NCBI GenBank assembly: GCA_031364845.1
Contig: JANLWX010000231.1
Coordinates: 23,531-87,530, forward strand
Reading direction: 5' to 3'
DNA from: Candidatus Eiseniibacteriota bacterium
GTDB taxonomy: Bacteria > Eisenbacteria > RBG-16-71-46
DNA length: 64,000 nt
Shown here piece by piece: positions 12,506 to 48,943 of this stretch. The stretch's first letter is position 1. Each line of letters opens with the position of its first letter. A program made the translations under genes and the position numbers. The notes below the pieces were generated by a model. That model saw only the letters and a list, made by a program, of their open reading frames with translations, made no database searches and was not told the origin of the DNA.

Positions 12506-12559
12506 TGTCGTGGGTTTATCGGCGCGCGACGGCGGCAGCGTGGGCGATTTCGCAGGGCA

Positions 12560-22079: not shown

Positions 22080-23231
22080 TCAGAACTGGTTCAGGAAACG
22101 GAGGTCGTTCTCGAGGAACATGCGGATCTCGCCGACGCCGTGGCGCAGCATCGCGATCCGCTCGATGCCCATGCCGAACGCGAAGCCGGTGTACTCCTCG
22201 GGGTCGTAGCCGACCGCGCGGAACACGTTCGGGTGCACCATGCCCGACCCGAGCACTTCGAGCCATCCGGATCCTTTGCACACGCTGCAGCGCTTGGTCG
22301 TACCGCCGTCGGTCACCTGGCCCGCGCCGTCGCAGATCGTGCACGACACGTCCATCTGAGCGCCCGGCTCGACGAACGGAAAGTAGATGGGGATGAAGCG
22401 CGTTCGCACCTGGGCGCCGAACAGCGCGCGCGCGAAGGTGTTCAGCGTGCTCTTCAAGTCCGCCATGCTGACGTTCTTCCCGACATAGAGACCGTCGATC
22501 TGGTGGAACTGATCCATGTGGCTCGCGTCGATCTGCTCGGCACGGTAGACGCGCCCCGGAAACACGAGCCGCAGCGGCGGCTTCATCTCCGACATCGCGC
22601 GCACCCAGCCCGGGGACGTGTGCGTGCGCATCAAGAGCGAGTCGGTGACGAAGTAGGTGTCGTGCGCGTCGCGCGCCGGATGATCGGGCGGGAAGTTGAG
22701 GCGCGTGAAGTTGAATTCGTCGCGCTCGACTTCGGGGCTCGTGTACACCGAATAGCCGAGACCGTGGAACAGGTCGAGCAGCTCGTCGTAGATCTGCATC
22801 AGCAGATGCCGGCGTCCGACCCACGGCAGTCGTCCGGGCAGCGTGACGTCGGTCGCTCCGCGCGACTCGGCCGCGCGTGCGTGCGCGGCGCGCACGGCTT
22901 CGTGCAGATCCTCGAGCAGCCGCTTGGCGAGGTTGAGCGCGCGGCCGCGAACCTTGCGCTGATCGAGTGGCAGTTGCGGGATCTCGGCGAGCGCGCGGGT
23001 CAGATCCCCGCGCTCGCGCCCGAGTGCCGCGGTGAAGCGGCTCACGAGCGTCGCCGCATCCGCGGCTCCTGCGATCGCATGTCCGTAGGCACTCACCGCA
23101 TCGGCGACCTCACGGTCGATCGCCGACAGCTGAGCGATCCGCTCGGCCCAATCCGCCACCCGCGTGGCGGGATCGGTTCGTTCCCAGCCGTCTTCGAGTC
23201 CGCGCACCAGGGGTGCGGCGGGGGCGCTCAC
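22080..23231 (-). CDS. pheS: phenylalanine--tRNA ligase alpha subunit
   Basis: Track ORF 383 aa with class II aaRS motifs ([29 protein letters not shown]). There is a 4-bp overlap with rplT. Confidence 0.95.
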
Positions 23232-23584
23232 GCTGCCGCCGACTTCGCGACCTCCGCGAGACGCGCAAACGCCGTCTCGTCACGCACGGCGAGGTCCGCG
23301 AGCAGCTTCCGATTGACCTCGATGTTCGCGCGCTTCAATCCCGAGATCAGCGTGCTGTACGACAGGCCGTTGATGCGCGCGGCCGCGTTGATGCGCGTGA
23401 TCCACAGGCGGCGGAAATCCCGCTTCTTCGCGCGGCGATGCTCCCACGCGAACTGCCCCGCGCGCTGAACGGTCTGCAGCGCGGTCTTGAACAGCTTGCG
23501 ACGACCCTGGAAATTTCCCTTGGCTGCCTTGAGGACCTTCTTACGTCGGGCGCGGCCGGGAACTACTGTTTTTGCGCGTGGCAT
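23228..23584 (-). CDS. rplT: 50S ribosomal protein L20
   Basis: Track ORF 118 aa beginning [31 protein letters not shown], which is canonical for L20. Confidence 0.95.
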
Positions 23585-23662
23585 GACTCAAACCTCCATC
23601 CCCGCAGTACCGGATGCGGCGCGGGGAAATTGAACGAATCTGTGGACGACGAAGCGTCCCGA

Positions 23663-23860
23663 TTACCGCTTGCCGAGCATGCGCAGGACGCGCGGCTGAT
23701 CGACATCAGCCACCATCGCGGTCCCGACCAGCTTGCGCTTGCGACCGCGAGGCTTTCCGATCATTCCGTGACGGAGACCGGAGTGTGCTCGCTTCGCCTT
23801 ACCGCTTCCCGTGAGCTTGAATCGCTTCGCGGCGGCGCGGTTGGATTTCTGCTTGGGCAT
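23663..23860 (-). CDS. rpmI: 50S ribosomal protein L35
   Basis: Track ORF 65 aa, MPKQKSNRAAAKRFKLTGSGKAKR..., canonical for L35. Confidence 0.9.
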   Translation of the reverse strand: MPKQKSNRAAAKRFKLTGSGKAKRAHSGLRHGMIGKPRGRKRKLVGTAMVADVDQPRVLRMLGKR

Positions 23861-23862
23861 CG

Positions 23863-24501
23863 TTACTCCTTCGAACCGGCTTCCATGCGGATGCCGGAGG
23901 ACGCGGACGAACTCTTCTCGCCAGCACCCGGGTGGTCGTTGTCTTCCGTCATTTCACGGTGCTCCTTGCTGCCGGGCTTCGGGGGCCTCGGCATCAGCAC
24001 CGTCGTCAGCGAGCGCCCTTCGGAACGCGGCGGGGATTCCACCGTCGAAACGTCGGTCAACTCGGCGATGATCTTCTGGATCAACGTGAAGCCGATGTCC
24101 ATGTGCGCCATTTCACGGCCGCGGAACGTGATCGTGAACTTGACCTTGTCGCGTCCGTTCAGGAAGTCGCGCGCATGGTTCATCTTGAAGTCGTAGTCGT
24201 GGTCGTCGATCTTCGGGCGCATCTTCACTTCTTTGAGCTGCATCTGGTGCTGCTTCTTCTTGGCCTTGCGCGCGCGGCGGTTCTGTTCGTACTTGAACTT
24301 CCCGTAGTCCATGATCCGGCACACCGGCGGCCGCGCCGTCGGGGAAACTTCCACGAGATCGAGGCCGCGGGACTGCGCGAGCTGCAACGCCTCGCGCGTG
24401 GCGAGCACTCCGACCTGTGACCCATCGTCCCCGATCACTCGGACCTGGGGGACGCGGATGCGTTCGTTCACCCGAACTTCAGGCTGCTTGGCTACTGAAA
24501 T
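23863..24501 (-). CDS. infC: translation initiation factor IF-3 (AUU start codon)
   Basis: Track ORF 23863..24561. The IF3 homology (KQPEVRVNERIRVPQVRVIGDDGSQVGV...) begins at an ATT codon at 24499-24501, preceded by a perfect SD GGAGGTG at 6-nt spacing. This is the classical autoregulatory AUU start. There is no ATG at the homology start. The C-terminus carries an unusual ~40-aa acidic/Ser-rich tail. Confidence 0.8.
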   Translation of the reverse strand: MSVAKQPEVRVNERIRVPQVRVIGDDGSQVGVLATREALQLAQSRGLDLVEVSPTARPPVCRIMDYGKFKYEQNRRARKAKKKQHQMQLKEVKMRPKIDDHDYDFKMNHARDFLNGRDKVKFTITFRGREMAHMDIGFTLIQKIIAELTDVSTVESPPRSEGRSLTTVLMPRPPKPGSKEHREMTEDNDHPGAGEKSSSASSGIRMEAGSKE

Positions 24502-24560
24502 GGTTGCCACCTCCGCGAGAGCGGTTCGCTGCAGGGCCCGGAGCGCATGCGACGCATGCA

Positions 24561-24606
24561 AAAAAACGCCGGGCAGGGTTCCAAGCAGAAACCCCGCCCG
24601 GCGTTG
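24561..24606 (-). terminator. Rho-independent terminator/attenuator between giant gene and infC
   Basis: The minus strand reads AACGCCGGGCGGGG-(13 nt loop)-CCCTGCCCGGCGTT followed by UUUUUUU. The stem is 14 bp and GC-rich with one G-U pair. It lies 60 nt upstream of the infC AUU. Confidence 0.65.
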
Positions 24607-24854
24607 CCGGAAGACCAGGCACCCACGAATGATCGCGGAATGCGTGCGTCCGAAGCGAGAACCCTTGAGCGAGACCCAGAGGTCCGCGGGGGTGAGAAGC
24701 CGGTAGGGCTTCTGCTTGAAGTAAGACGTCGGGCAGTTTAGGGGGCCTGGGGTGGAATTGCAAGGCCTGCCGGGGGCCTCGCGCGGTTGCTGCCGAGGCA
24801 GGGTCCGGGCTGGCCGGCCCGCGCGGGACCGTCAGCCCTCCCCCGTGACCTTCC

Positions 24855-27800
24855 CTACTGAACGACCACGAACCTCCCCGTGACGCGTTCCGTCCCCTGG
24901 CTCAATCGCGCGAAATACATTCCGGGCTTGAGCGATCGGGCGCCCGCGATCCGCACGTCGTGCGTGCCGGCCGACAGCCCTTCGAGTGCTTCGCGCACGA
25001 AGCGGCGTCCGCCGAGGTCGTAGATCTCGAACGTCGCCGCACCCGCGCGCGGCAGCGCGAGTGATACGAGCACGCCGCGCGATCCGGCATCCCACCGCAC
25101 TGCGGACATCGCGAGCGCGGTGTTGCCGGGGACCGAAACCGACGTCTCGCCCACGAACACCTCTCCCGACGCGAGCATGATGCCGAGCCGGTAGGCGTAC
25201 TGCGCGCCCGGAACCACGTCGTAGTCGTCGAACGTCAGACGATGCGACCCATCCGGCACCAGCCGCGCCACGTGCGTCCATTCGCGTGCACCCTCACGCC
25301 GGTAGACCGCGGCTTCCGGAACGTCGGCGGTCATCCACACCACGCGCACCCGTTCGGAGTTGGCCTCGGTGGTCACGACCGATGCCTGCACAGGAGTCGA
25401 GCTCACGCAGTTGGCAATGCCGCCCTGCCACGAGATGTAGTTGCGATTGATCGGCATCGTGAGCTGCGGGTCATAGTTGAGTTGGAAGGGCTGGAACAGC
25501 TGAATCTCGTTCAGCAGGAGGCACATGGGTTCCGAGCAACCGGCGCAACTGCCGCTGCCGGTGGTCTTGGAACGCAGGATATTTGCCTTGAACGCGTAGT
25601 ACTCGGTTTCGGGATCGACCGGCGCCGCACTTTCGATCGGAACCGCCGCCTGGATCCGGAACCGCGCACGGCTGGGCGAACCGAAACCGACATCGTAGGC
25701 ATAACCGCCTGCCGCCTGTCCGGCGAAGTAGTCGACGCACGTGAACGGCCCGGAAGTGAAGTCGAAACTGGTCGCGAGCCCGGTGGTCGAGCGGCATTGC
25801 TGGCTGCCATGCCGCCACCAGTCGGGCAAGGTGGCCGTATTGGACCGGATGTCGATCTGGGCGGACATGCCGGCGAACTCCGTGACGTTCGGCGGAGGAA
25901 TGAATGATGCGATCATCGCGAATGCGGAACCAGAGTTCGCATCGCAGGCGAACGTCATGTTCTCGGTGCCCGCGGTTCCGCAGTCGCTCCACGACAGGTT
26001 GATGCCGCCGTTCGTGATCATCAGGGGCCCCACACGGAACGTGCTGTCCGAGACCGCGGTCCCGCCGGGATTGGTGACGCTGATCGGACCGTTCGTGGCT
26101 CCGGTGGGAACGGTGGCGGTGATTCTCACATCGGAAGAAATACTGAACGGCGTCGGAAGTCCGTTGAACCGGACGGACGACGTGTACAGGAAGTTCTCCC
26201 CCGTGATGGTGATCGTGCTCCCCACCGGCGCCTGGCGAGGCGAGAAACTCGCGATGCGCGGCGCGACGATGAACGTGCCGGCCGACGTCATCGAACCGTT
26301 CGGTGTGCTGACTTCGATGAATCCCGTGCGCGCACCGGCCGGGACGGTGGCGTGAATCACCGAGTCCGATACGGTCGTGAACAGAGCCGGCCGCAAGTCG
26401 AAGGTGACGAGCGAAGTTGCGGTGAAATGCAGTCCGCGGATCGTGACCACGGTGCCGGGTGCTCCCGCGCCCGGCGTGAACGACTGAACGTCCGGCAGCG
26501 GACCCGGAACTCCCTGCCACGCGATCGTCTTGTGATCGAGTGCGGTCGTGATCACCGGGTCGTACTTGAACTCGGGCGTCTGGAACAACTGGATCTGCCG
26601 CAGCGTGAGGCTCACGGGAACGTTGCACCCCGAGCAACTGCCCGTACCCGTCGACTGCGTGCGGAGGAGATTCACCTTGAAGGCGTGGTACTCGACGGCC
26701 GGATCCAACGCGACGCGATGGGAGTTCATGAATCCGAACACTTCGATCCTGGCCATGTTCGCGCCGCCGAATCCGACCGTGTAGTCGAGGGTGCCCGTCA
26801 CCAGTTCCTGCCAGGGGTTCACGCAGGAGCCCGGGGCCAGCGAGAAGTCGAAGTTCGACGTGAGGTCGCCGGTGCCGCGGCAGAACGAGGAACCGTGCTT
26901 CCACCACTCGGGCAGCGCGGAGCCCGACGCGATCCGGATGTCCCCGGAGAGACCGATCATCTCGGTGACGCCCACCGGCGGTTTGAACGATGCGAACGCC
27001 GTGACCGTTCCCGTGTTCACGTTGCAGGCGAAGTTCTTCAAGTCGGCGCCCGCCGCGCCGCATGCATCCCACGACAGGTTGATGAATCCCGGCGGCAGCG
27101 GCCCGACCGTGAACGCGATGTCGGAGATGTCCTCACCCGCGGGATTGGCGACGCGCAGCGGACCGCTGGTGGTGCCCGCCGGCACCGGGGCCGTGAGCAT
27201 CGAGTCGTTGACGATGGTGAACGTGGCGTCGAGGCCGTTGAATTCGACGTCGTTGACGTTGATGAAGTTCACGCCGCGCACGGTGATGACGTGACCCACG
27301 GGTGCCTGCCGCGGCGCGAACGACGTGATGATCGGAGCGACGCTGAACAGATCGTCGCTGACGTCGCTGCCCTGAATCGTCGCGACCGTGATCCGGCCGG
27401 TGCGCGCGCCGGGCGGTACCGAAGTCGCGATGGTCGTGTCCGAGGTCACGGAGAACGACGCACTCAACGTGTGAAAGAGCACGGAATTCGTTCCGGTGAA
27501 GTGCGCGCCGCGAATCGTGACCGGCTGTCCCGGGGCACCCGCCATGGGTGAGAACGAGTCGATCACCGGCGGCGGACCCGGCTCCGCCTGCCACGCGATC
27601 GCGTTGCGAAGCTGCGGTGTCGTGATCACGGGATCGAAGCCGAGTTCCGGGGACTGCATCAGCTGTAGCTGCTCGAGCGTGAGCGAAACGGGCACGTTGC
27701 ATCCGGAGCACGCACCCGCTCCGGTCGTCGCGGTACGAAGCACCTGCACCTTGAACGCGTTGTACTCGCGATCGGACTGGGTCGCGGTGCGATTCGACGG

Positions 27801-30800
27801 ATCCATCGCACACACGACCTGCAGCAGTGCCGTGTTGGGGCCGTCGTAGGCGACTGAATACGAGGTGTTGCCTACCGCCTGGCCCTGCCACGGATCGAAG
27901 CATGGTGAGCCTGCGAAGCTGAAGGTTGCCGGCAGAGCGGAGCTGGCGCGGCATTGCGCGAAGCCGTGTTTCCACCAGTCGGGAAGCGCCTGGGACGATG
28001 CGATGCGCACGCGGGCGGACATTCCGATCAGCTCCTGCACGCCGGGAGGCGGCACGAACGAGCCGACGAACGTGAACCCGGTTCCCGTGTTCGCGTCGCA
28101 CGCGAACGTCTTGAGCGCCGTACCCGCCGTACCGCACAGATCCCACGACAGGTTGAGCAAGCCCGCGGGCAGCGGTCCGACATGGAACAGACTGTCTGAG
28201 GTGTCGGAGCCGCCGATATTGGTCACGGTGATCGGTCCGTCGGTCGCTCCCGCCGGCACCGGCGCCTGCAGGGTCGAGTCGTTCTGCACGGTGAACGTGG
28301 CGGTGGTGCCGTTGAAGCTCACGGCCGTGGTCCGCGTGAAGTTGAAGCCGCGGATCGAAAGCGGATAGCCCACCGGGGCCGATTGCGGAAGGAAGTTGCG
28401 CAGTTCGGGCGCCGCGATGAACATGCTGTCGCTGGTGTCCGAACCCTGGATCGTCGCGAGGTGAATCGGTCCGGTGCGCGCACCGGCCGGCACGACCGCC
28501 TCAACCTTGGTGTCCGAGGTCACCGTGAACGACGAGGCCGCAAGCGTGTGAAACCTCACCGACGAAGCGCCGGTGAATCCGCTGCCCGAGATCGTGACGA
28601 CCTGAGCAGGACCGCCGCCCGGCGGTGTGAACGCCGAAATCTGCGGAACCGGTCCCGGTGCTGCCTGCCACAAGGCGACCACTCGAGCGGCCGGTGTGGT
28701 GAGGATCGGATCGTATCCGAGTTCGGCACTCTGGAAGAGCTGGATCTGATTGAGTGTGAGGCCTACGGGGAGGCTGCAGCCCGCGCATGCGGCGGCGCCG
28801 GTCGTGTTCGCGCGCTGGATCTGCGCTTTGAACGCGTAGTACTCCGTCGAAGGACTGGCCGCTCCCGCCGAGGCCGGCAACGAACACGAGATCTGGAGTC
28901 GCGCGCTGTTCGCGCCATAGAACCCGACGCCGTACGAGGAACTCCCGGTCGCGAGCCCCTGCAGGATGTCGGTGCACGACGTGGGTCCGCTGCGGAAGTC
29001 GAAGTTCGTCGTGAGCCCTGTGGTTCCGCGGCACTGGCCGGGGCCGTGTTTCCACCAGTCGGGCAGATCACCGGTCGAAGCGATTCGGATCTCGGCCGCG
29101 AGGCCCGTGAGTTCGAGGACATCGGGCGGAGGAATGAACGATCCGACCAGCGTGAACGCGCTGCCCGTATTGAGGTCGCAGGCGAACGCCTGGGTCGCGG
29201 TCCCCGCGAGTCCGCAGTCGTTCCACGACAGATTGATGGTTCCCGATACGATCGGACCGACATGGAACGGGTCGTCGGAAGTGTCGGTGCCACCGGGGTT
29301 GGTGATGGCGATCGGACCGTCGGTTGCGCCAACGGGGACGATGGCATAGATCGTCGTGTCCGAATGCGTCGTGTACGACGAAGCGAGTCCGTTGAACCGG
29401 ACCGACGTCGAGCGCGTGAAGTTGGTGCCGCGGATCACGACCGTGTGCCCCACCGGGGCGGTGTGCGGCAGGAAGAAACGGATGTCGGGCTTCACCACGA
29501 ACAGACTCTCGGATGCCGCGGTTCCGCGGGATGTGGTCACCGCGATCGAGCCGGTGCGGGCGGCGGCGGGGACGGTCGTCGAGATCCGTGTGTCGGAGTC
29601 GACGGTGAAGGAAGCGGACACGTCGCGGAACCGAACCGCGGTGGCTCCTGTGAAGTACTGGCCCTGGATCGTCACCGGGATGCCGGGGGCCCCGGCGAGC
29701 GGCGTGAACGAATCGACCCGCGGCAACGGCCCGGGCTCCGCCTGCCAGAACGCGCTGTTGCGATGGAAAGGAATCGAGATCACCGGGTTGTAACCCATCG
29801 CGGCCGGCTGAGTGAGCTGGATCGTGTGGAGCGTGACGCGCACCGGCGTCTCGCAGCCATCACACTTCCCGGAGGAGTAGCTCTTGTTGCGCGTGATGTT
29901 GACCTTGAACGCGTAGTACGCCGTGTTCTGATCGACCGGAGTGTTCAGGGTCGACGAACTCGAAATTCTGATGCGGGCCGTGTTCGCGCCATAGAAGCCC
30001 ACATCGTAGCTGAAGCCCCCGCCGTTGATCTGGTCGAGCCACAGGTTGTCGCAGGAATAGGGTCCGCCGAACGAGCTGAAGTTGACGTTGAGCCCGGCCG
30101 AGCTGCGACACTGACCGGATCCATGCTTCCACCAGTCGGGCAAGGTGGTGGCATACACGCCGAGATCGGAGATCGCCCCGTTGAGCTGGCTCACGCCGGG
30201 CGGAGGCACGAACGACCCGATCAGCGTGAACGGCGTTCCCGTGTTTCGATCGCACGCGAACGTCTTGATCGCCGTTCCCGCGAGTCCGCAATCGTCCCAC
30301 GACAGATCCAGCGCGCCCGCCGCGGGGCCCACGCGGAACACGGAGTCGGATGGAGTCGTGCCGCCGGGATTCGTGATCGAGATCGGCCCGGTGGTGGCCG
30401 CGCCCGGCACGACCGCGAGGAGCAGCGAATCGCTGTCGATGGAGAAGCTCGCCGTCGTCCCGTTGAAACGCACGGCCGAGACGTTTGCGAAGTTGCGGCC
30501 GGTGACGAGGATCGAGGCACCCGCGGACGCCTGCTTCGGCAGGAAGTGGCGGATCGCAGGGGCCACCGTGAACGAGAGGCTGGTGCCGCTTCCGAACGCC
30601 GTATCGAGCGTGATGGGCCCGGTCTCTCCCCCGACGGGAACGGTCGTCGTGACCTGAGCGTTGGAGACGATGTTGAACGCCGCGGCCACGGTCCCGAAGC
30701 GTACGGACGTGGTGCCGAGCAGGTTCGAGCCGTTGATCGTCACGACCACGCCCGGCGCTCCGGCTGCAGGCGAGATCGAACCGATCACCGGCGGTCCCGG

Positions 30801-31499
30801 TGTGACCGCCTGCCAGTACACGGTGTTGCGCGTGAGCGGTGTCGTGATGATCGGATCGTTCGCACTCGATAGCGGTTGGAACAGTTGAATGCTCTGAAGC
30901 TTGAGGCTCACCGGCGCGCTGCACCCGGCACAACTGCCGGCACCGGTCGTGTTCGAACTCAGCACGCGCAGCTTGAACGCGTAGTATTCCTGCGCCGCGG
31001 AAACGGGCGCGGCTTCATTGGAAGGAATCGCGCACTGGACCAGGACCTTGGCGGTATTGGGGCCGTACGCCGAGATCGTGTAGAGAAGCCCCCCCACTTC
31101 GCTGCCCGGCCAGAAGTCCGTGCATGCAACCGGCGAGAACGCGAAGTCGGGTGTGAGCGCGCTCACGCCGCGGCACTGTCCGCTCCCGTGCTTCCACCAG
31201 TCCGGAAGGCTGGTCGAGGCCACCCGCACCTCGGCCGACATGCCGAGCAGGTTGTTGATGCCCGCGGGCGGAACGAAAGACGCCACGGCGTTGAACGCCG
31301 GCCCGGCGTTCGTGTTGCAGGCGAACGTCTTCAACTGCGAGCCTGCAGCGCCGCAATCGTCCCACGAGAAGTTGATTCCGGCGGCATCGGCGGAGGGAAC
31401 TCGAGAACTCATGAGCAACGCGGCGCAGCAGATGAACGCGAATGTCCGGCGTAGCAACTCGGCGAACGCGACGGGACGAGACGAGCGAGGGCGGATCAT
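24855..31499 (-). CDS. giant secreted repeat protein (2214 aa): signal peptide, 5 x [novel Cys-rich domain + 2 IPT/TIG], 1 x Cys-rich domain, FN3-like domain, Por/T9SS-type C-terminal sorting domain
   Basis: Track ORF 2214 aa. The N-terminus MIRPRSSRPVAFAELLRRTFAFICCAALLMSSRVPSADA is a signal peptide. Six copies of a ~195-aa module begin (I/L)(N/D)LSW(D/N/S)(D/L/A)CG, with 8 conserved Cys. IPT/TIG pairs follow (P.I.SFSP..GAPG..VTI.G..FTG...V.F ... VP.GA.TGPI.VTNPGG). The C-terminus FEIYDLGGRRFVREALEGLSAGTHDVRIAG...GMYFARLSQGTERVTGRFVVVQ matches the Por secretion tail / FlgD-Ig-like CTD consensus. Confidence 0.85.
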   Translation of the reverse strand: MIRPRSSRPVAFAELLRRTFAFICCAALLMSSRVPSADAAGINFSWDDCGAAGSQLKTFACNTNAGPAFNAVASFVPPAGINNLLGMSAEVRVASTSLPDWWKHGSGQCRGVSALTPDFAFSPVACTDFWPGSEVGGLLYTISAYGPNTAKVLVQCAIPSNEAAPVSAAQEYYAFKLRVLSSNTTGAGSCAGCSAPVSLKLQSIQLFQPLSSANDPIITTPLTRNTVYWQAVTPGPPVIGSISPAAGAPGVVVTINGSNLLGTTSVRFGTVAAAFNIVSNAQVTTTVPVGGETGPITLDTAFGSGTSLSFTVAPAIRHFLPKQASAGASILVTGRNFANVSAVRFNGTTASFSIDSDSLLLAVVPGAATTGPISITNPGGTTPSDSVFRVGPAAGALDLSWDDCGLAGTAIKTFACDRNTGTPFTLIGSFVPPPGVSQLNGAISDLGVYATTLPDWWKHGSGQCRSSAGLNVNFSSFGGPYSCDNLWLDQINGGGFSYDVGFYGANTARIRISSSSTLNTPVDQNTAYYAFKVNITRNKSYSSGKCDGCETPVRVTLHTIQLTQPAAMGYNPVISIPFHRNSAFWQAEPGPLPRVDSFTPLAGAPGIPVTIQGQYFTGATAVRFRDVSASFTVDSDTRISTTVPAAARTGSIAVTTSRGTAASESLFVVKPDIRFFLPHTAPVGHTVVIRGTNFTRSTSVRFNGLASSYTTHSDTTIYAIVPVGATDGPIAITNPGGTDTSDDPFHVGPIVSGTINLSWNDCGLAGTATQAFACDLNTGSAFTLVGSFIPPPDVLELTGLAAEIRIASTGDLPDWWKHGPGQCRGTTGLTTNFDFRSGPTSCTDILQGLATGSSSYGVGFYGANSARLQISCSLPASAGAASPSTEYYAFKAQIQRANTTGAAACAGCSLPVGLTLNQIQLFQSAELGYDPILTTPAARVVALWQAAPGPVPQISAFTPPGGGPAQVVTISGSGFTGASSVRFHTLAASSFTVTSDTKVEAVVPAGARTGPIHLATIQGSDTSDSMFIAAPELRNFLPQSAPVGYPLSIRGFNFTRTTAVSFNGTTATFTVQNDSTLQAPVPAGATDGPITVTNIGGSDTSDSLFHVGPLPAGLLNLSWDLCGTAGTALKTFACDANTGTGFTFVGSFVPPPGVQELIGMSARVRIASSQALPDWWKHGFAQCRASSALPATFSFAGSPCFDPWQGQAVGNTSYSVAYDGPNTALLQVVCAMDPSNRTATQSDREYNAFKVQVLRTATTGAGACSGCNVPVSLTLEQLQLMQSPELGFDPVITTPQLRNAIAWQAEPGPPPVIDSFSPMAGAPGQPVTIRGAHFTGTNSVLFHTLSASFSVTSDTTIATSVPPGARTGRITVATIQGSDVSDDLFSVAPIITSFAPRQAPVGHVITVRGVNFINVNDVEFNGLDATFTIVNDSMLTAPVPAGTTSGPLRVANPAGEDISDIAFTVGPLPPGFINLSWDACGAAGADLKNFACNVNTGTVTAFASFKPPVGVTEMIGLSGDIRIASGSALPEWWKHGSSFCRGTGDLTSNFDFSLAPGSCVNPWQELVTGTLDYTVGFGGANMARIEVFGFMNSHRVALDPAVEYHAFKVNLLRTQSTGTGSCSGCNVPVSLTLRQIQLFQTPEFKYDPVITTALDHKTIAWQGVPGPLPDVQSFTPGAGAPGTVVTIRGLHFTATSLVTFDLRPALFTTVSDSVIHATVPAGARTGFIEVSTPNGSMTSAGTFIVAPRIASFSPRQAPVGSTITITGENFLYTSSVRFNGLPTPFSISSDVRITATVPTGATNGPISVTNPGGTAVSDSTFRVGPLMITNGGINLSWSDCGTAGTENMTFACDANSGSAFAMIASFIPPPNVTEFAGMSAQIDIRSNTATLPDWWRHGSQQCRSTTGLATSFDFTSGPFTCVDYFAGQAAGGYAYDVGFGSPSRARFRIQAAVPIESAAPVDPETEYYAFKANILRSKTTGSGSCAGCSEPMCLLLNEIQLFQPFQLNYDPQLTMPINRNYISWQGGIANCVSSTPVQASVVTTEANSERVRVVWMTADVPEAAVYRREGAREWTHVARLVPDGSHRLTFDDYDVVPGAQYAYRLGIMLASGEVFVGETSVSVPGNTALAMSAVRWDAGSRGVLVSLALPRAGAATFEIYDLGGRRFVREALEGLSAGTHDVRIAGARSLKPGMYFARLSQGTERVTGRFVVVQ
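25150..31390 (-). repeat. six divergent tandem ~1.07-kb coding repeats inside the giant gene
   Basis: The protein-level periodicity of ~355 aa is visible as recurring nucleotide blocks encoding LSWDDCG, LPDWWKHG.GQCR, EYYAFK and IQL.Q. Confidence 0.7.
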
Positions 31500-31676
31500 G
31501 GGATCGACTCCACGATGAGTTCATGCTGCGGGGCATGGTTCAGCGTCGACGGATGGAGTTTTCTGAGGGAATGATAGGCCAGTGCCCGCGTGGAGATACA
31601 GAACAATCTCTGAACAATCTTGCGGGTGCTCCCTATATAAAGAGAGACGCCGTCTTTCCTTCCTCGAACGCGACAA

Positions 31677-31712
31677 CGAAAAAGGCCCCCGCGGCGAGCG
31701 TCGCCGGGAGGC
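31677..31712 (-). terminator. Rho-independent terminator downstream of thrS
   Basis: The minus strand reads GGCCUCCCGGCGACGCUCGCCGCGGGGGCC, a GC-rich bulged hairpin, followed by UUUUUCG. It lies 45 nt after the thrS stop and before the putative promoter region of the giant gene (TATATA box near 31630). Confidence 0.6.
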
Positions 31713-31755
31713 CTCATCGTGATGTGCGGCAACGACCTTGTCGTTCGCCGAGAAC

Positions 31756-33534: not shown

Positions 33535-33661
33535 GGCGTCACTCCTTGGGCGGATGGCGAGGCTGTTCAGGCGGCGGATATCGCGGGTGTTCGGGGCGGC
33601 AATGCCGGAAGCGAACCCGGGATGTTCCCGCGGGTGCTCGCGTTCTCGTTCCGCCTTAAAG

Positions 33662-33737
33662 TGGTGGGCGATACTGGACTTGAACCAGTGACCCCTTGCT
33701 TGTCGAGCAAGTGCTCTACCAACTGAGCTAATCGCCC
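33662..33737 (-). tRNA. tRNA-Val (anticodon GAC)
   Basis: Reverse complement reads GGGCGAT-TA-GCTC-AGTTGGTA-GAGC-A-CTTGC-TCGACAA-GCAAG-GGGTC-ACTGG-TTCAAGT-CCAGT-ATCGCCC-A-CCA. It lies 127 nt upstream of thrS. Confidence 0.9.
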
Positions 33738-34099: not shown

Positions 34100-34930
34100 T
34101 TGAGTCGAGTCGTTCGCAGTTCAGTAGTGGCGGTTCTGGCAGCTTGCGGCGCGTTATCGATCCTCGCATCCACTGTGATGGCCGATGCCTTCGCGCGCTC
34201 GAACCGATCGAATCGCAAGGTTCACGTGTCGGCGATCGCTCACGATGGAGGGATTCCCTGCTCCCAGGACGCGAGCCAGCAAGGGGGAACGCTGACGCGT
34301 GTGTGCTTCAGTGCCGGCGGGCTCGGCGGCTCCAACGTCGGCTACGCAAGCGCGAGCGCCGGGCCGGGCTTCGCGCATTCGGTGAACTACACCAAGGGCA
34401 CGGCGAGAGCCGGACTCGGCGTTGCTGCGGCGGGCGACACCGCGGTCAGCGATTCGTTCCTCGTGACCTACTCGAACACGGCCGTCAACCAGACGACGAT
34501 CGTCATCAACGGACGCCTGTTGGTCGATGGCACCAACATGCTGAACTCGACCAAGGGGTTACTGCGGGTGCTCGTCTATCGCGATTCGGCTGCCGCCGAT
34601 TCCGACCCCGCCCACGTCGGTGCGGGTGCGGGAACTCTGTTCAGCGGAAAACTGGAGGTCACGAAGGCGTCGCATGTGGCTTCCGGCGGATTCAGCAGCG
34701 GAAACTTTGCGGCGATCGCCGGAGCGAACCGCTATCAGGTGTCGGCCAGCAATCTCTCGAAGGTCGTTTCCGGTGTGGTCGACACCTCGAAGGTCGTCGT
34801 CATGGTCTTCAACGATTCGGTGTCGGACGTTCCCATGAGCTCGCCGCTCGTCGTGTTGCTCGGCGCGGGGCTGCTGGGCGGTAGTGCGCTATGGGCGATG
34901 CGCCGGCGCAAGTCGGCCGGTCTCGCCTGA
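34100..34930 (+). CDS. secreted protein with PEP-CTERM-like sorting tail
   Basis: Track ORF 276 aa with a signal peptide ([28 protein letters not shown]), a Gly/Ser/Ala-rich beta-rich body, and the C-terminus ...[35 protein letters not shown]. That tail is a degenerate (V)P(E)P motif, a TM helix and an RRRK cluster. Confidence 0.55.
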
Positions 34931-38220: not shown

Positions 38221-39203
38221 TCAGCTGCCGAGCCATTTCCGGGCGGCGAGCGACAGTCGCTCGCGACCGAGCAGATAGAGCCATGCCGCGCTCGCGGCCA
38301 CCAGCCCCGATACACGGATGACGGCGTTCGCGAAGCGTGCCGCCTGATCGGCGTCGGCGGACGACATCATGACTTTCAACGCGGCCACCAGCGACAGTAC
38401 TTCGATTCCGAACAGCAGCGGGATGCCGATCGCCGCCGCGCTCAGGCGCCGCGCGCGCGTTGCCCACGCGCTCGCGAGACACAGTGCGACGAACACGCCG
38501 ATGTCGAACGGATAGAACAGCTCGAGGTCGACGATCTCGATCTCGCTTCCACGCGGTGCCGCGATGCGTGCGCCGACCGCGGCCACGGCGTGTTCCCACG
38601 ACGGATGCAGGTGCCACGCCACGAAGAACGCGAGCGTGGCCCACGCCATGAAGCGCAACAGGAACTTCACGCCGCCGCCGGCTTGCGAGTGGAAGCGGCA
38701 GGTCCGATCCAGCGCAGCCACAATGCAAACGTGGCGAACAACACCAGCACGGTTCCCGTCTGCCACAGATACACGTGCGCAAAGTCGAACCATGCAGGGC
38801 GCCAGATCAGGATCTGGATCAATGCAATGATCCGCACGGTGTTGAATAGATGGATGACGATTGCGCCGAACAGGAGGCCGAGCGCTCGCTGGCGCCATCC
38901 CGATGGGAACGCGAGCACCACCGCCGCGAAGATCAGGTAGGGAATGTGCGGGCTGCAGTCGCTCACGATGCTGACCCCCTGCCCGCCCGCGTAGATCGAA
39001 TCGCCGACGCGCCGGACTTCCTGCCGCGTCAGCCGGAATGCCTGCTCGACCGTCCCCACCGTGATCGCGATGCCGAATCGCTCGACGCCGGGAAAACGGC
39101 TGAGCACGAGCAGCGCCACTCCCCAGTAAGCCACACACAGGGCGAGGAAGCGCAGCACCGGACTCTTGGAGTTCGTGGGAAGCGGCTTGGGCTTGCGGCT
39201 CAT
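38221..39203 (-). pseudogene. polytopic membrane protein, possibly exosortase (EpsH) family, split by a frameshift in a GGC repeat
   Basis: Two overlapping minus-strand ORFs, 38667..39203 (178 aa) and 38221..39252, cover this region. Only the 3' ~150 aa of the second looks coding. The hydrophobic pattern continues across the junction (...LVLFATFALWLRW in the first frame, then VKFLLRFMAWATLAFFVAWHL... in the second). The shift lies within CAAGCCGGCGGCGGCGUGA near 38667-38700. Multi-TM profile and a DCSP/NTVR region give weak support for the exosortase call. Confidence 0.35.
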
Positions 39204-39380
39204 GATCGATGGTAGGGTGAAGGGTGTGTTGCGAGGCTGTCGCGAACTGCACGCGTCGCCATGGATGTCACGATGTGTCGCGAGGCCGCCGGCGGCCGAG
39301 CGTCATTCGGCGCGAGGTTACGCCCGCCAGCCACGCGCGCCAAACTCGAAGCGCGCGAATTCCATGATCCGGGAGCTGTG

Positions 39381-45898: not shown

Positions 45899-48721
45899 TC
45901 ATCGGACCACCACCATGCGACGGGTGAGCGATACGCCGCCCGTGCTCAAACGGTAGAGGTAGACGCCGCTCATGACGCGCTGGCCGGCCGCGTCACGTCC
46001 GTCCCATGTGATGCCATGACGCCCTTCGGCGCGCGGTCCGCGTTCCAGCTCACGCACCAGGCGGCCCTGCAGGTCGAAGATGCGCAGCGTCACGTCCGCC
46101 GCGCGGGGCAGCGTGAACGAAACCGTGGCGGGCGTGCGTGTCGGATTGGGGCGCACCGGAGCGAGCGACACCGAACCCGCATCGATCTCACCCACCGCGA
46201 GCGGACCGGAGATCGTGAAGTCGGCGTTGCTCACGTCGGATCCCGCGTTGAACGCATGGTCGTGGGCGATGACCTGCACGCGGCAGGTGGAAACCATCGG
46301 ACCCGCGACGGTCCACGAATAGCTCCCGCTGTTGGGAACTCCCGCAGCGATCACCGTGGGATACGTCGCTCCGCTGTCGGTCGACAGCAGGATCGACACC
46401 GAATCGATCGGGCTCGTATCGGTCGCACTCCAGGTGATGTTGCGCGTGGATCCGAGCGGCCACGCCTCACCCCCGTCCGGCGCGTTGACCGCGACCACTG
46501 GCGGTGCCGCGTCGACGAACGCGCGCCACATGCTGCGACCGTGCGTGGCGGCGACCAGCCACGAGTTCAGGTTGTCGATCGCGAGATCGTAGACCGCGTT
46601 GGAGGGCATCGACGCTCCCGCCAACTCCCAATGAGCGCCCCCGTCACGCGAGGAGTAAACCCCGAAGTCGGTTCCCAGATAGAGCCGCTCAGGGATGGTG
46701 CGCCAGTCAACGGCAAGAGACAGTCCGCGCAGGAAGCCCGGAAGGTCGCCGGTCGCGTTGGTCCACGTGACGCCGGCGTCGCCGGTCGTCCACACGCGTC
46801 CGCCCGACTGCCCATCAAGGCTCACGTAGGCGCGATCGCTGAAGGCCGGGCCCACCACGATGTCCGTCACCGCCAGCGCCGGCAGCCCGCTGTTGCGGAG
46901 GTTCCACGTCGCTCCCCCGTTGACCGTGACCTGGATGGCGCCATCGCTCCCACCCGCGTAGATCGTTCCGGGATTCGGCCCTCCCGGAGAAACCGTCAGC
47001 GCGCGCAGCACGCCGCTCGGCGTGACCGCGAGATCCGGACTGATCAGGCTCCAGCTGTCGCCGCGATTGAGGCTTTCGTAGACCCGATAGGTTCCCGCGA
47101 GCAGGCGGTTCGGCGTCGCGGGATCGGAGATGAGCGGGCTGTTGCACCAGTCGGCGCGATCGTTGGTGCCCTGCCAGGGTCCCGAGACGTTGGCGTTGAA
47201 CCCCGCGCCGAGCCAGCGATACAGGTTCGTCAGGCGGATGTACGTGGTGTAGTAGTAGCTGGGATCGCTCGATTCGTAGGCGACCGGTCCGCCGTCACCG
47301 GCGATCACTTCCGGCCACGCCAATCCCCCGCTGTACTGCACCGTTCCATTGTCCTGGGTTCCCCCGAGGATCGCGTCCGGATTCGTAGGGTGGATTCCCA
47401 ACGTGTAGAACTGAGCGATGCCGAGCGTGCTGTTGCAGTTGATCCAGTGCGCGCCGAGATCGGTGCTCTTCCATACTCCGCCGTCGTTCGCAACCCACAG
47501 CGTGCCGTCCGGCCCGAACGTGCCGTAGTGTTGATCCGGATGGAGCGTGCTGCCATCGATTCCGGCGGTGATGTCGGTCCACGAGGTGCCGCCGTCGATC
47601 GTCTTGACCACGCCCTGAGTGCCGCCTCCGTACGGATAGACGCCGCCTGCGATACAGATATTGGCGTCGGTCGGCGATACGACGACGAAGTGGTCGTACC
47701 AGCCCTGGCCGCCCAGATAGTTGGGAGCAGCGGTCTGCTTGGTCCAGTTGGTTCCGCCGTTGATCGATTTGTAGAGCCCCTGCAGCGATCCCGAATTCGT
47801 CGCCACGCTCGCATAGAGGATCGAGTTGTTGGTCGGCGCGATCGCGACCTGAACCCGGCCGACGACGCCGGTCGGCAGTCCGCCCGCGAGCTTTGCGAAC
47901 GTCAAGCCGCTGTTGATCGATCGCCATACGCCGCTTCCGTTGCGCGCGACGAACACGCGCGTGGGGTCCGCGGTGCTGATCGCGATGTCGTCACAAGACA
48001 GGCCCGCGAGCGTCGTGGTCCACGTGACGCCGCGGTCCGTGCTGCGGACCACGCCCGAGCTGCTCGTGACGAACACCATGTTGGAATCCGCCGGGTTCAC
48101 CGCGACGCGCGAGATGTAGGAACCTACAACTCCCGCCGAGGCGATCTTGGACCACGTCGCACCGGCATCGAGGCTCCGGAACAAACCGTCCCCATAGAAG
48201 CTGTCTCCGGAGTAGTGCAGCTCGCCGGTTCCGTAGTAGACGACGTTCGGATTCTGCGGATCGAGCGAGACGCAACCCGAAGCGAGCGAGGACAGATGAT
48301 CGGTGAGCGGTGTGAACCCGAGACCGCCATCGGACGTTTTCCACACGCCGCCCTGCGCGGCGGCGATGTAGGCGACGTTGCCGTCGCGCGGATCGACGGC
48401 AATCGACGACACGCGTCCGGACACACTCGCGTAGTTCGCCCAGTAGTCGCCGAGGATGGGATAGGGTCCGAGGAATCCCCACGTCAGAGGTCCCATATCG
48501 AAGCCGAGATCGGGATCGACGGCACCCAGCGCCTGAATCTCGAGACGGCCTGCCGCCCGCCGGTACATCTCTTCGAGCGTGATGCGTTCGGGACCGGTTT
48601 CGCGCTCGCGATCGCCTTCAGCGGTGCGACCGAGCGGCTCGGCGTGAACGGGCAGCGTGAAGAGCAGCATGGCGAGGGCGAACCCCGACCAGCAATGCGA
48701 TGCGAGCGGCCTGCGGGACAT
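45899..48721 (-). CDS. secreted BNR/Asp-box repeat protein (sortilin/Vps10-xyloglucanase-like beta-propeller) with FN3-like domain and Por/T9SS-type C-terminal sorting domain
   Basis: Track ORF 45899..48748. I chose the ATG (MSRRPLASHCWSGFALAMLLFTLPVHA), which gives a signal peptide. There are many S.DGG.TW / S.D.G.TW BNR motifs (KTSDGGLGF, RSLDAGATWS, RSTDRGVTWT, KSINGGTNWT, KTIDGGTSWT, KSTDLGAHW, SLNRGDSWS, VTVNGGATWN, SSRDGGAHWE). The C-terminus RPNPTRTPATVSFTLPRAADVTLRIFDLQGRLVRELERGPRAEGRHGITWDGRDAAGQRVMSGVYLYRLSTGGVSLTRRMVVVR fits the Por_Secre_tail consensus. Confidence 0.75.
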   Translation of the reverse strand: MSRRPLASHCWSGFALAMLLFTLPVHAEPLGRTAEGDRERETGPERITLEEMYRRAAGRLEIQALGAVDPDLGFDMGPLTWGFLGPYPILGDYWANYASVSGRVSSIAVDPRDGNVAYIAAAQGGVWKTSDGGLGFTPLTDHLSSLASGCVSLDPQNPNVVYYGTGELHYSGDSFYGDGLFRSLDAGATWSKIASAGVVGSYISRVAVNPADSNMVFVTSSSGVVRSTDRGVTWTTTLAGLSCDDIAISTADPTRVFVARNGSGVWRSINSGLTFAKLAGGLPTGVVGRVQVAIAPTNNSILYASVATNSGSLQGLYKSINGGTNWTKQTAAPNYLGGQGWYDHFVVVSPTDANICIAGGVYPYGGGTQGVVKTIDGGTSWTDITAGIDGSTLHPDQHYGTFGPDGTLWVANDGGVWKSTDLGAHWINCNSTLGIAQFYTLGIHPTNPDAILGGTQDNGTVQYSGGLAWPEVIAGDGGPVAYESSDPSYYYTTYIRLTNLYRWLGAGFNANVSGPWQGTNDRADWCNSPLISDPATPNRLLAGTYRVYESLNRGDSWSLISPDLAVTPSGVLRALTVSPGGPNPGTIYAGGSDGAIQVTVNGGATWNLRNSGLPALAVTDIVVGPAFSDRAYVSLDGQSGGRVWTTGDAGVTWTNATGDLPGFLRGLSLAVDWRTIPERLYLGTDFGVYSSRDGGAHWELAGASMPSNAVYDLAIDNLNSWLVAATHGRSMWRAFVDAAPPVVAVNAPDGGEAWPLGSTRNITWSATDTSPIDSVSILLSTDSGATYPTVIAAGVPNSGSYSWTVAGPMVSTCRVQVIAHDHAFNAGSDVSNADFTISGPLAVGEIDAGSVSLAPVRPNPTRTPATVSFTLPRAADVTLRIFDLQGRLVRELERGPRAEGRHGITWDGRDAAGQRVMSGVYLYRLSTGGVSLTRRMVVVR

Positions 48722-48943
48722 CGATTCCTCCGGCAGAGTGGGAAGCATTGCGCCCCATCATGGTAGCCGGGGGTTCCCGGACGTGTCCGCGCGTGGGCTG
48801 AAGAATCAGGTGCGCCGCGATTTTACTTCATTCGCGGGCCGCGGGTGGAACCCAAATCGCGCCCCGGCGGCTGGCCGATCGTTCGCCATCGGGAGTACAT
48901 TCCGGGCGTTGCTCCCCCGCCGGATTCCTTTCGAGGAGGCACC

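What the first reader, a model, noticed from the sequence alone, without database searches (positions are those of the whole stretch)
24855..25100. Two proteins in the window end in a Por/T9SS-type (FlgD-Ig-like) C-terminal sorting domain
The giant protein (24855-25100) and the BNR-repeat protein (45899-46150) both terminate in ~80-aa domains fitting the Por secretion tail pattern. The shared elements are a PNP element, L.I(Y/F)DL.GR.VREL, G.H.V(R/T)WDG, SG(V/M)Y(F/L)(A/Y)RL and a terminal VVV(Q/R). This implies that the organism has a T9SS-like secretion and attachment pathway. Together with the PEP-CTERM/exosortase signals at 34-39 kb, it suggests two distinct surface-protein sorting systems in one genome.
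Basis: partly seen in the sequence, partly recalled or inferred. Interest (0 to 1): 0.55.

Follow-up and report, generated by a model that had tools for sequence, protein, structure and literature searches.

The report
Two T9SS-type C-terminal sorting domains
Two large secreted proteins of an uncultured, probably Eisenbacteria-like soil bacterium end in the standard tail domain that Bacteroidetes-type bacteria use to export and anchor surface proteins, which is routine annotation; the larger protein also carries six copies of an undescribed domain that deserves its own look.

Summary
The 2214-aa protein (24855-31499, minus) and the 949-aa BNR/sortilin-like protein (45899-48748, minus) both end, exactly at the stop codon, in homologous ~88-aa domains (38% identity, E=3e-12). 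Both reach NCBIfam's cut-off for TIGR04183, the T9SS type A sorting domain. Only the BNR tail also passes Pfam FlgD_ig. Neither passes Pfam PF18962.

The T9SS inference is plausible but not shown. No T9SS core gene lies in the 64 kb. The named relatives are Candidatus Eisenbacteria, which groups with the FCB phylum Latescibacterota. Soil-metagenome contigs sharing the giant's lineage-restricted domain encode PorU-like C25 peptidases with the same tail. SprA, PorV and GldKLMN were never seen.

The "PEP-CTERM" aside needs correcting. An exosortase-family gene is real, but the candidate substrate ends in VPMSSP + helix + RRRK and has no PEP motif.

This is a new member of a known kind and of low interest. 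More interesting is the giant's repeated, unannotated ~205-aa Cys-rich domain. It is predicted to be cohesin-like and has at least 1600 relatives. Stand-alone copies end in an invariant ...TWGxVKSLYR tail and lie next to the PorU-like genes.

The parts
24855..31499 (-). Gene for the 2214-aa giant surface protein. Layout: signal peptide, then 5 x (ND domain + 2 TIG domains), then a sixth ND, an Fn3-like domain and the CTD.
   Evidence: ORF and translation. Ten TIG stretches, 226 bits. NCBIfam CoaZ_rpt_PGGG 'choice-of-anchor Z repeating domain', 214.8 bits. A 100%-identical protein, P0121, is on an NCBI contig of 115,863 bp.
24858..25121 (-). C-terminal sorting domain (CTD) of the giant, about aa 2127-2214. 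It belongs to a divergent subfamily without the PNP and WDG elements.
   Evidence: TIGR04183: 23.0 bits in the whole protein, 29.1 bits isolated, cut-off 23. AlphaFold2 model: pLDDT 93.7, seven beta strands. The same tail is conserved in homologues P0122-P0147. The match ends at the stop codon.
25110..25370 (-). Fn3-like beta domain between the sixth ND and the CTD, about aa 2044-2130.
   Evidence: Assigned by eye from the sequence pattern (VRVVW...YRR...W...PG..Y.YRL). No family hit. This is inference.
31383..31499 (-). Putative Sec signal peptide of the giant (aa 1-39, ...SADA/AG).
   Evidence: By inspection: basic n-region, hydrophobic core, AxA site. No predictor was run.
30762..31385 (-). 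ND copy 1 (aa 39-246), the unannotated Cys-rich domain.
   Evidence: Self-alignment and HMM.
29694..30320 (-). ND copy 2 (aa 394-602).
28617..29246 (-). ND copy 3 (aa 752-961). This is the copy that was modelled.
27540..28166 (-). ND copy 4 (aa 1112-1320).
26466..27092 (-). ND copy 5 (aa 1470-1678).
25386..26012 (-). ND copy 6 (aa 1830-2038). This is the 'terminal type', with two extra Cys (PMC...NC) as in the stand-alone ND proteins.
24565..24605 (-). Terminator-like hairpin (18-bp stem followed by a T run) between the giant's stop codon and infC.
45899..48748 (-). Gene for the 949-aa BNR/sortilin-Vps10-like (GH74-like) double-propeller protein, with an Ig-like domain and the CTD.
   Evidence: Sortilin-Vps10 79.6 bits and Kre9_KNH 34.6 bits. 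F510_1955 glycosylhydrolase model 119 bits, below its cut-off of 175. Best solved relative is the GH74 xyloglucan hydrolase 2cn3, E=6e-12.
45902..46174 (-). CTD of the BNR protein, about aa 859-949. This is the FlgD_ig-type T9SS type A tail.
   Evidence: TIGR04183 33.0 and 38.0 bits. PF13860 54.2 and 55.9 bits. PF18962 19.6 and 26.9 bits, below 27. The match ends at the stop codon.
48641..48748 (-). Putative Sec signal peptide of the BNR protein (...LPVHA/EP). The true start may be Met10.
   Evidence: Inspection. The homologue P0001 is 6 aa shorter.
38667..39203 (-). Exosortase/archaeosortase-family protein (178 aa).
   Evidence: TIGR04178 signature 45.9 bits, cut-off 23. Below cut-off for every subfamily: XrtH 70.3 (cut-off 86), XrtX 64.4 (170), archaeosortase B 52.9 (150). 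Pfam Exosortase_EpsH only 18.1 bits.
34100..34930 (+). 276-aa secreted protein ending in ...[29 protein letters not shown]. It is a candidate exosortase substrate with a VPXXXP-like tail, not a PEP tail.
   Evidence: Translation. It is the only ORF in the window with a motif + TM + basic C-terminus. No PEP-CTERM model hit at E<=0.1.

Best explanation
Both proteins are cargo of a type IX secretion system (T9SS).

Proposed mechanism:
1. Each protein is exported across the inner membrane through Sec, using its N-terminal signal peptide.
2. The ~88-aa C-terminal Ig-like domain (a type A CTD) is recognised in the periplasm by the T9SS translocon.
3. The protein crosses the outer membrane.
4. A PorU-type C25 sortase removes the CTD. 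The protein is then either released or linked to a cell-surface glycolipid.

The giant would then be a long surface fibre or scaffold made of TIG domains and cohesin-like modules. The BNR protein would be a surface or secreted GH74-like propeller protein.

Shown here: family membership of the tails, their C-terminal position, the predicted fold of the giant's tail, their modular exchange with classical Por tails in homologues, and outer-membrane biogenesis genes (TamA and TamB families) that point to an outer membrane.

Inferred: that the machinery exists in this genome, and that cleavage and attachment occur.
For: - TIGR04183 reaches or exceeds its curated cut-off for both tails.
- The tails are homologous to each other, E=3e-12.
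- A profile of the tail family matches solved T9SS CTDs: RgpB 5hfs (5e-5), the C-terminus of PorU 6za2 (8e-5), 8glj_D over its full length (4e-3), and the C-terminus of PorZ 5m11 (0.011).
- The AlphaFold2 model of the giant's tail is a confident 7-strand sandwich.
- In 1.39 Mb of held DNA from many phyla, all 10 profile hits end 0-1 residue from a stop codon. They occur only in the window, its relatives, one locus titled Cloacimonadales and one titled Candidatus Stahlbacteria.
- Homologues of the BNR body carry either this tail, a PF18962 tail, or no tail. That is the behaviour of an exchangeable sorting tag.
- The window encodes Omp85/POTRA_TamA-family and TamB-family proteins, i.e. outer-membrane biogenesis genes.
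- Named relatives are Candidatus Eisenbacteria. That phylum shares a root with Latescibacterota (PMC11323493), which NCBI places in the FCB group. T9SS is described as a feature of the FCB superphylum (PMC11205867).
- PorU-like proteins (Propeptide_C25 + Peptidase_C25; the complete one, L115, also has a FlgD_ig tail) occur on two contigs that carry the giant's lineage-restricted ND domain. NF033707 scores 203.6 and 124.4 bits. The closest solved protein is PorU.
Against: - No T9SS core gene is in the 64 kb (region 12-17 kb read by eye), nor in about 48 kb of two close relatives.
- SprA/Sov, PorV and PorK/L/M/N were not seen anywhere in the lineage, including 22 kb around a PorU-like gene.
- The PorU-like proteins score below the equivalog cut-off (420). 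They come from other metagenomes, not from this genome.
- Pfam PF18962 is below threshold for both tails. The giant's tail only just reaches the TIGR04183 cut-off in the whole-protein context.
- The profile matches FlgD Ig domains (1e-9) better than T9SS CTDs.
- Fold searches are not discriminating. The top matches are generic Ig-like or Fn3-like domains.
- No paper in the library links Eisenbacteria with T9SS.
Confidence: 0.72

Rival explanations
1. The tails are a sorting tag, but this lineage handles them with a reduced or divergent apparatus. For example, a PorU-like C25 peptidase with dedicated periplasmic PPIases could act on a different outer-membrane route, instead of the canonical SprA/PorV/GldKLMN T9SS.
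For: The only machinery-like gene found in the lineage is PorU-like. It scores well below the PorU equivalog cut-off (203.6 against 420). It sits in a conserved cluster with SurA-like PPIases and a HEAT + cyclophilin protein, not next to porV. No published T9SS description exists for Eisenbacteria.
Against: Only about 0.4 Mb of scattered contig pieces from the lineage were examined, and only 18 long proteins from them were scanned against NCBIfam (10 against Pfam). Absence of the other components therefore means little. TIGR04183-type tails are otherwise tied to canonical T9SS in FCB bacteria (PMC11205867).
Confidence: 0.15
2. The tails are ordinary FlgD/Vpr-type Ig-like structural or adhesive domains that happen to be C-terminal, with no role in secretion.
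Against: - Every hit ends at the stop codon, 10 of 10.
- The tail is swapped for a classical Por tail, or absent, in orthologous bodies.
- The same tail is attached to unrelated bodies. In ND-bearing contigs 34 of 246 ORFs of at least 200 aa carry it.
- The terminal basic residue and hydrophobic last strand are conserved.
- PorU and PorZ themselves carry this tail type.
Confidence: 0.08

Closest known systems
T9SS type A C-terminal domain (TIGR04183 / Pfam PF18962), as in P. gingivalis RgpB and F. johnsoniae RemA
   Same: An ~80-90-aa, 7-strand Ig-like domain at the extreme C-terminus of Sec-exported proteins. It shares the 'hydrophobic-D-x-x-G-R/K', 'G-x-Y-F/L' and terminal 'K/R-h-h-h-K/R' elements. 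Both tails score at or above the TIGR04183 cut-off. The family profile hits 5hfs, 8glj_D and 8qb1.
   Different: Both tails are below the Pfam PF18962 gathering score. The host is a high-GC (66.6%) Eisenbacteria-like organism, not a member of Bacteroidota. The giant's tail lacks the N-terminal PNP element. Secretion, cleavage and attachment were not tested.
FlgD/Vpr Ig-like domain (Pfam PF13860)
   Same: The BNR tail scores 54-56 bits. It shares the 'WDGRD..G..V.SGVY' hairpin with the flagellar hook-cap protein FlgD.
   Different: FlgD's Ig domain is internal and has no sorting role. The giant's tail does not match PF13860 and lacks the hairpin insert.
CTDs of the T9SS components PorU and PorZ
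   Same: The C-terminal regions of the NCBIfam PorU and PorZ models align to the BNR tail (37 and 26.5 bits on the isolated tail). The C-termini of 6za2 and 5m11 are hit by the tail profile.
   Different: Those CTDs are retained on machinery proteins. Here the bodies are a propeller protein and a TIG/ND repeat protein, so they are cargo.
Cellulosomal scaffoldins (tandem cohesin modules with a cell-surface anchor)
   Different: There is no sequence similarity to cohesins in Pfam or the PDB. ND is about 205 aa and has 3-4 inferred disulfides. No dockerin-like partner was identified. The anchor is a T9SS tail, not an SLH domain or a sortase signal.
Exosortase/archaeosortase systems (XrtH, XrtX, ArtB with VPXXXP-CTERM)
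   Same: A polytopic protein matches the exosortase/archaeosortase signature (45.9 bits against a cut-off of 23). A nearby protein ends in VPxxxP + TM helix + RRRK.
   Different: The sortase is below every subfamily cut-off. No PEP motif is present and no CTERM model hit was obtained. The pairing of enzyme and substrate is inferred from proximity only.

Membership tests
T9SS type A sorting domain (TIGR04183) | Score at or above NCBIfam's curated cut-off (23 bits) | tested here: met
   Giant: 23.0 bits in the whole protein, 29.1 bits isolated. BNR: 33.0 and 38.0 bits.
T9SS type A sorting domain (Pfam PF18962 Por_Secre_tail) | Score at or above Pfam's gathering threshold (27 bits) | tested here: not met
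   BNR: 19.6 bits in the whole protein, 26.9 bits isolated. Giant: 18.3 bits isolated. The BNR tail is near-threshold.
T9SS type A sorting domain | The domain ends at the protein's C-terminus | tested here: met
   Both matches end at the stop codon. All 10 hits in 1.39 Mb of held DNA end 0-1 residue from a stop codon.
T9SS type A sorting domain | 7-strand Ig-like beta-sandwich fold | tested here: met
   [not shown]
T9SS cargo | N-terminal Sec signal peptide | tested here: inconclusive
   Both N-termini show a basic n-region, a hydrophobic core and an AxA-type site by inspection. No signal-peptide predictor was available.
T9SS cargo | Core machinery (SprA/Sov, PorV, PorU, PorK/L/M/N) encoded in the same genome | not testable with these tools
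   None is in the window. The rest of the 115,863-bp contig and its assembly could not be retrieved. Indirect evidence: PorU-like C25 peptidases occur on ND-bearing metagenome contigs.
T9SS cargo | T9SS-dependent export, CTD cleavage and surface attachment | not testable with these tools
   This needs an experiment.
FlgD Ig-like domain (PF13860) | Score at or above the gathering threshold (27 bits) on the tail | tested here: met
   Met for the BNR tail (54.2 and 55.9 bits). NOT met for the giant's tail: the only PF13860 hit in the giant is 13.3 bits at aa 1444-1488, outside the tail.
Exosortase/archaeosortase family | TIGR04178 signature at or above its cut-off (23 bits) | tested here: met
   45.9 bits for the product of 38667-39302.
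Exosortase subfamilies XrtH, XrtX and archaeosortase B | Subfamily model at or above its cut-off | tested here: not met
   XrtH 70.3 bits (cut-off 86), XrtX 64.4 (170), ArtB 52.9 (150).
PEP-CTERM sorting signal | PEP motif + TM helix + basic cluster at the C-terminus, matching the PEP-CTERM model | tested here: not met
   No NCBIfam PEP-CTERM hit at E<=0.1 on the product of 34034-34930. The motif reads VPMSSP, with no PEP. A TM helix and RRRK are present.
PorU, T9SS sortase (NF033707), for the related-contig protein L115:4727-8926 | Equivalog cut-off (420 bits), with a C25 peptidase plus CTD architecture | tested here: inconclusive
   203.6 bits, below 420, but it is the best of 18,950 families. 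Propeptide_C25 + Peptidase_C25 (192.5 bits) + FlgD_ig tail. The closest PDB sequence is PorU 6za2 (3.6e-11), against Kgp at 3e-4.
Cohesin module (for the ND domain) | Sequence match to cohesin, or a cohesin-type 9-strand jelly-roll fold | tested here: inconclusive
   [not shown]

The most novel reading that the evidence does not exclude
The giant protein may be more than one more T9SS cargo. It could be a T9SS-anchored scaffold built from six modules of an undescribed, disulfide-rich, cohesin-like domain family (ND).

What is known about ND:
- It has at least 1600 clusters at 50% identity and is absent from Pfam, NCBIfam and the PDB.
- Its stand-alone ~245-aa members carry an invariant C-terminal ...C-P-x-x-T-P-x-R-x-x-T-W-G-x-(V/I)-K-S-L-Y-R tail.
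- Those members are encoded, often in tandem, in conserved synteny with SurA-like PPIases and a PorU-like C25 peptidase.

This would point to a new PorU-linked surface-assembly system in Eisenbacteria-like soil bacteria. The TWG..KSLYR tail would be either a second kind of C-terminal signal or a module-binding peptide.
Probability: 0.15. Interest if true: 0.7.

Novelty: new member of a known kind. Interest (0 to 1): 0.25.

Why it matters
As stated, the finding adds two proteins to a family with more than 238,000 catalogued members (PMC11205867). NCBI's annotation pipeline uses this same model, so it would probably name both proteins automatically.

Its modest value is taxonomic. It indicates that a very poorly known candidate phylum, Eisenbacteria, uses T9SS-type tails heavily. 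In related contigs 34 of 246 ORFs of at least 200 aa carry one. That lineage also encodes PorU-like peptidases. No paper in the searchable library says this.

The larger potential value lies in the by-product. ND is a big, unannotated, cohesin-like domain family, and it has a conserved link to a PorU-like gene cluster.

Tried and rejected
- **Exact look-ups of window proteins.** The window's own contig is not retrievable, so no genome-wide T9SS search was possible.
- **Word-indexed homologue search with the CTD profile.** It returned only 14 short fragments.
- **Literature searches.** Searches for Eisenbacteria plus T9SS returned nothing. Searches on T9SS in other FCB candidate phyla returned nothing relevant.
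- **Cluster look-ups for organism names.** The only names were Candidatus Eisenbacteria (for a 50%-identical BNR homologue) and Candidatus Rokuibacteriota (for a partial giant homologue). The phylum assignment is therefore probable, not certain.
- **A generic role for the ...TWGxVKSLYR tail.** I tested whether it occurs on non-ND ORFs in the held DNA, as a generic sorting signal would. It does not.
- **PorV next to the PorU-like gene.** None was recorded within 10 kb.
- **Rejected: the tails as chance low-complexity matches.** The pairwise E-value, the HMM scores and the conservation across homologues exclude this.
Full report
**1. What is at the coordinates**

The window is high-GC (66.6%). 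On the minus strand, 24855-31499 is a 2214-codon ORF and 45899-48748 is a 949-codon ORF.

The two C-terminal 100-residue segments align at 38% identity with E=3e-12. An HMM built from them finds nothing else in a six-frame translation of the window.

**2. Family tests for the tails**

NCBIfam TIGR04183 is the T9SS type A sorting domain, with a cut-off of 23 bits.
- Giant: 23.0 bits in the whole-protein context and 29.1 bits on the isolated tail.
- BNR protein: 33.0 and 38.0 bits.

Pfam FlgD_ig (PF13860) is passed only by the BNR tail, at 54-56 bits against a cut-off of 27. Pfam Por_Secre_tail (PF18962) is below its gathering score for both tails, at 19.6 and 26.9 bits for BNR and 18.3 bits for the giant.

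Both tails pass the model that NCBI uses to name such proteins.

- Shared elements: (Y/F)DL.GR, G(V/M)Y(F/L).RL and the terminal VVV(Q/R).
- BNR only: 'PNP' and 'WDG'.
- The giant's tail belongs to a subfamily, conserved in its homologues, that reads V.WD(A/G) at the start and lacks the 4-5-residue FlgD-type insert.

**3. Is it a sorting tag or just an Ig domain?**

Several observations favour a sorting tag.

- A profile of 47 tails matches FlgD Ig domains (E about 1e-9). It also matches solved T9SS CTDs: RgpB 5hfs (5e-5), the C-terminus of PorU 6za2 (8e-5), the substrate CTD 8glj_D over its whole length (4e-3), and the C-terminus of PorZ 5m11 (0.011).
- The AlphaFold2 model of the giant's tail is a confident seven-strand sandwich with pLDDT 93.7.
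Every hit ends 0-1 residue from the stop codon. The hits occur only in the window, its two close relatives, one locus titled Cloacimonadales and one titled Candidatus Stahlbacteria.
- Homologues of the BNR body carry this tail, a classical PF18962 tail, or no tail at all. That is the behaviour of an exchangeable anchor.
- Both proteins have N-termini that look like Sec signal peptides by inspection.
- The window encodes Omp85/POTRA_TamA-family and TamB-family proteins, i.e. outer-membrane biogenesis genes.

**4. Does the organism have a T9SS?**

This could not be answered directly. Every sizeable ORF of the window was assigned (region 12-17 kb by eye). The genes are:
- a trp operon, recN, nadK, dxs and ispA, then (by eye) xseA, folD, a ymdB-like gene and rny;
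- zapA with a 6S RNA, then pheST, rplT and infC;
- the giant gene, thrS and tRNA-Val;
- aroG and aroC, a DUF4760 protein, an exosortase-family protein, a PMT_2 glycosyltransferase, PPK2, a DUF4097 protein and a TPR protein;
- the BNR protein, an MFS transporter, a PLP-dependent decarboxylase, BrkB and TopIB;
- an Omp85/POTRA_TamA-family protein and a TamB-family protein.

None is a T9SS core gene.

The window's contig is an NCBI contig of 115,863 bp and is not retrievable.

On taxonomy:
- The only named close homologues are Candidatus Eisenbacteria/Eiseniibacteriota.
- One partial giant homologue is labelled Rokuibacteriota. Two hits are labelled Limnocylindria: a BNR homologue (P0049) and a TIG-protein hit (P0131). 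I suspect binning noise.
- Eisenbacteria share a well-supported root with Latescibacterota (PMC11323493).
- NCBI places Latescibacterota in the FCB group.
- T9SS is described as a feature of the FCB superphylum (PMC11205867).
- No paper in the library mentions T9SS in Eisenbacteria. One preprint calls the phylum one of the most poorly characterised.

**5. Indirect machinery evidence**

I used the giant's lineage-restricted domain (see section 7) as bait in the metagenome collection. This returned 65 loci with GC of 66-70%. In them, 34 of 246 ORFs of at least 200 aa carry the tail.

I scanned 18 long ORFs from these loci against NCBIfam. Two, on independent contigs and 49% identical to each other, have PorU (NF033707, the T9SS sortase) as their best family.
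- L115:4727-8926 scores 203.6 bits, E=4e-60.
- L127:16638-20591 scores 124.4 bits; it runs off the end of the locus, so its C-terminus was not seen.

Both are below the equivalog cut-off of 420. Both have Propeptide_C25 and Peptidase_C25 domains (192-198 bits); the complete one, L115, also has a FlgD_ig tail. The closest solved sequence is P. gingivalis PorU (3.6e-11), ahead of Lys-gingipain (3e-4).

No PorV, SprA or GldKLMN was seen. This includes 10 kb on each side of one PorU-like gene.

The lineage therefore has a candidate sortase. The translocon and motor remain unexamined.

**6. The second sorting system**

The product of 38667-39203 (minus) matches the exosortase/archaeosortase signature TIGR04178 at 45.9 bits, against a cut-off of 23. 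It stays below the cut-offs of XrtH, XrtX and archaeosortase B. Pfam's EpsH model gives only 18 bits.

The only ORF in the window with a motif + TM + basic C-terminus is 34100-34930 (plus strand). It ends in [29 protein letters not shown]. This is a VPxxxP-type tail, not PEP, and no PEP-CTERM model matched.

The statement 'two sorting systems in one genome' is thus fair, with 'PEP-CTERM' replaced by 'unclassified exosortase with a VPXXXP-like candidate substrate'. It is not remarkable. NCBIfam's XrtF model carries the name exoso_Fjoh_1448, which I read as a Flavobacterium johnsoniae locus tag; that organism is a T9SS model.

**7. What else the giant protein is (by-product)**

*Architecture.* The giant consists of a signal peptide followed by six copies of a ~205-aa domain that I call ND.
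- ND motifs are NLSWDDCG, FAC, LPDWWKHG.GQCR, EYYAFK, C.GC, IQLFQ and WQ.
- ND has six conserved Cys.
- The first five copies are each followed by two TIG domains.
- The sixth copy is followed by an Fn3-like domain and the CTD.

*Databases.* ND has no match in Pfam, NCBIfam or PDB sequences.

*Size of the family.* A full HMMER search of 1.84 billion representative proteins finds 2116 clusters at E<=1e-3 and 1601 at E<=1e-10.

*Stand-alone members.* Most of the best-scoring hits, 93 of the 143 new proteins in the top-150 list, are stand-alone ~245-aa secreted proteins. They end, at the very C-terminus, in a nearly invariant C-P-x-x-(T/V)-P-x-(R/K)-x-x-T-W-G-x-(V/I)-K-(S/A)-L-Y-R tail. In the metagenome loci, 45 of 54 small ND ORFs end this way, and most of the rest are cut by contig ends.

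*Synteny.* Stand-alone ND genes occur in tandem. On two independent gene clusters, one represented by contigs from two samples (L115/L155 and L154) and one by L127, plus a partial fourth contig (L134), they lie in the same order:
1. ND paralogues;
2. one or two SurA-like PPIases;
3. a ~500-aa protein with a weak rotamase domain;
4. the PorU-like peptidase;
5. a HEAT + cyclophilin protein (seen in the first cluster only).

*Other genomes.* In a 4.16-Mb relative, at least five ND/TIG giants, four of them with CTD-profile hits (the first giant's tail is hit only in a shifted frame), stand in tandem next to aroG.

*Local context.* In the window the single giant sits between thrS and infC. A strong terminator hairpin follows its stop codon.

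I did not establish what ND does. The scaffoldin-like reading and the link to PorU are hypotheses.

**8. Verdict**

- The domain identification is correct.
- The inference of a T9SS is likely (about 0.7) but unproven.
- The PEP-CTERM aside needs correction.
- The finding itself is routine annotation: a new member of a known kind.
- The ND family and its synteny with a PorU-like gene is the part that deserves a separate follow-up.

Noticed in passing
[not shown]
   Followed up: partly
L115/L155 394-8926; L127 6523-20591; L154 1-9993; L134; L085-L087: Stand-alone ~245-aa ND proteins end in a nearly invariant ...CP..TP.R..TWG.(V/I)KSLYR tail. They occur in tandem. They lie in conserved synteny with SurA-like PPIases, a ~500-aa protein, a PorU-like C25 peptidase and, in the L115/L154 cluster, a HEAT + cyclophilin protein. 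The function of the tail is unknown. It was not found on any non-ND ORF in the held DNA.
   Followed up: partly
window 23228-33750 (-); terminator 24565-24605: The 6.6-kb giant gene sits inside the usually compact thrS-infC-rpmI-rplT-pheST cluster. An 18-bp-stem terminator hairpin follows its stop codon. In a 4.16-Mb relative (L084), at least five such giants lie in tandem next to aroG. The region looks like a hot spot for these genes.
   Followed up: partly
window 38667-39203 (-), 34100-34930 (+), 39261-40979 (+): An unclassified exosortase/archaeosortase-family protein lies next to a PMT_2-type glycosyltransferase. About 4 kb away is a secreted protein ending in VPMSSP + TM + RRRK, a VPXXXP-like tail as used by archaeosortase B. 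The exosortase and glycosyltransferase pair is conserved in the relative L083.
   Followed up: partly
L089-L153 (ND-bearing metagenome loci, GC 66-70%): 34 of 246 ORFs of at least 200 aa carry the CTD, which is an unusually high density of T9SS-type tails. The bodies include choice-of-anchor D, F510_1955-like propeller, LapB-repeat and M6-like domains.
   Followed up: partly
window 18538-18744 (-): A 6S RNA (Rfam RF00013, 64.4 bits) lies directly downstream of zapA, the same arrangement as zapA-ssrS in E. coli.
   Followed up: no
window 33662-33737 (-) and 911-987 (-): tRNA-Val(GAC) lies immediately upstream of thrS. tRNA-Arg(CCG) lies downstream of trpB.
   Followed up: no
window 12047-16850 (-): This stretch has no family hits, because the frames I first submitted were wrong. 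By eye it encodes a DUF212-like membrane protein, a polyprenyl synthase (DDxxD motifs), XseA, FolD and a YmdB-like phosphoesterase next to rny. All are housekeeping genes and none is related to T9SS.
   Followed up: partly
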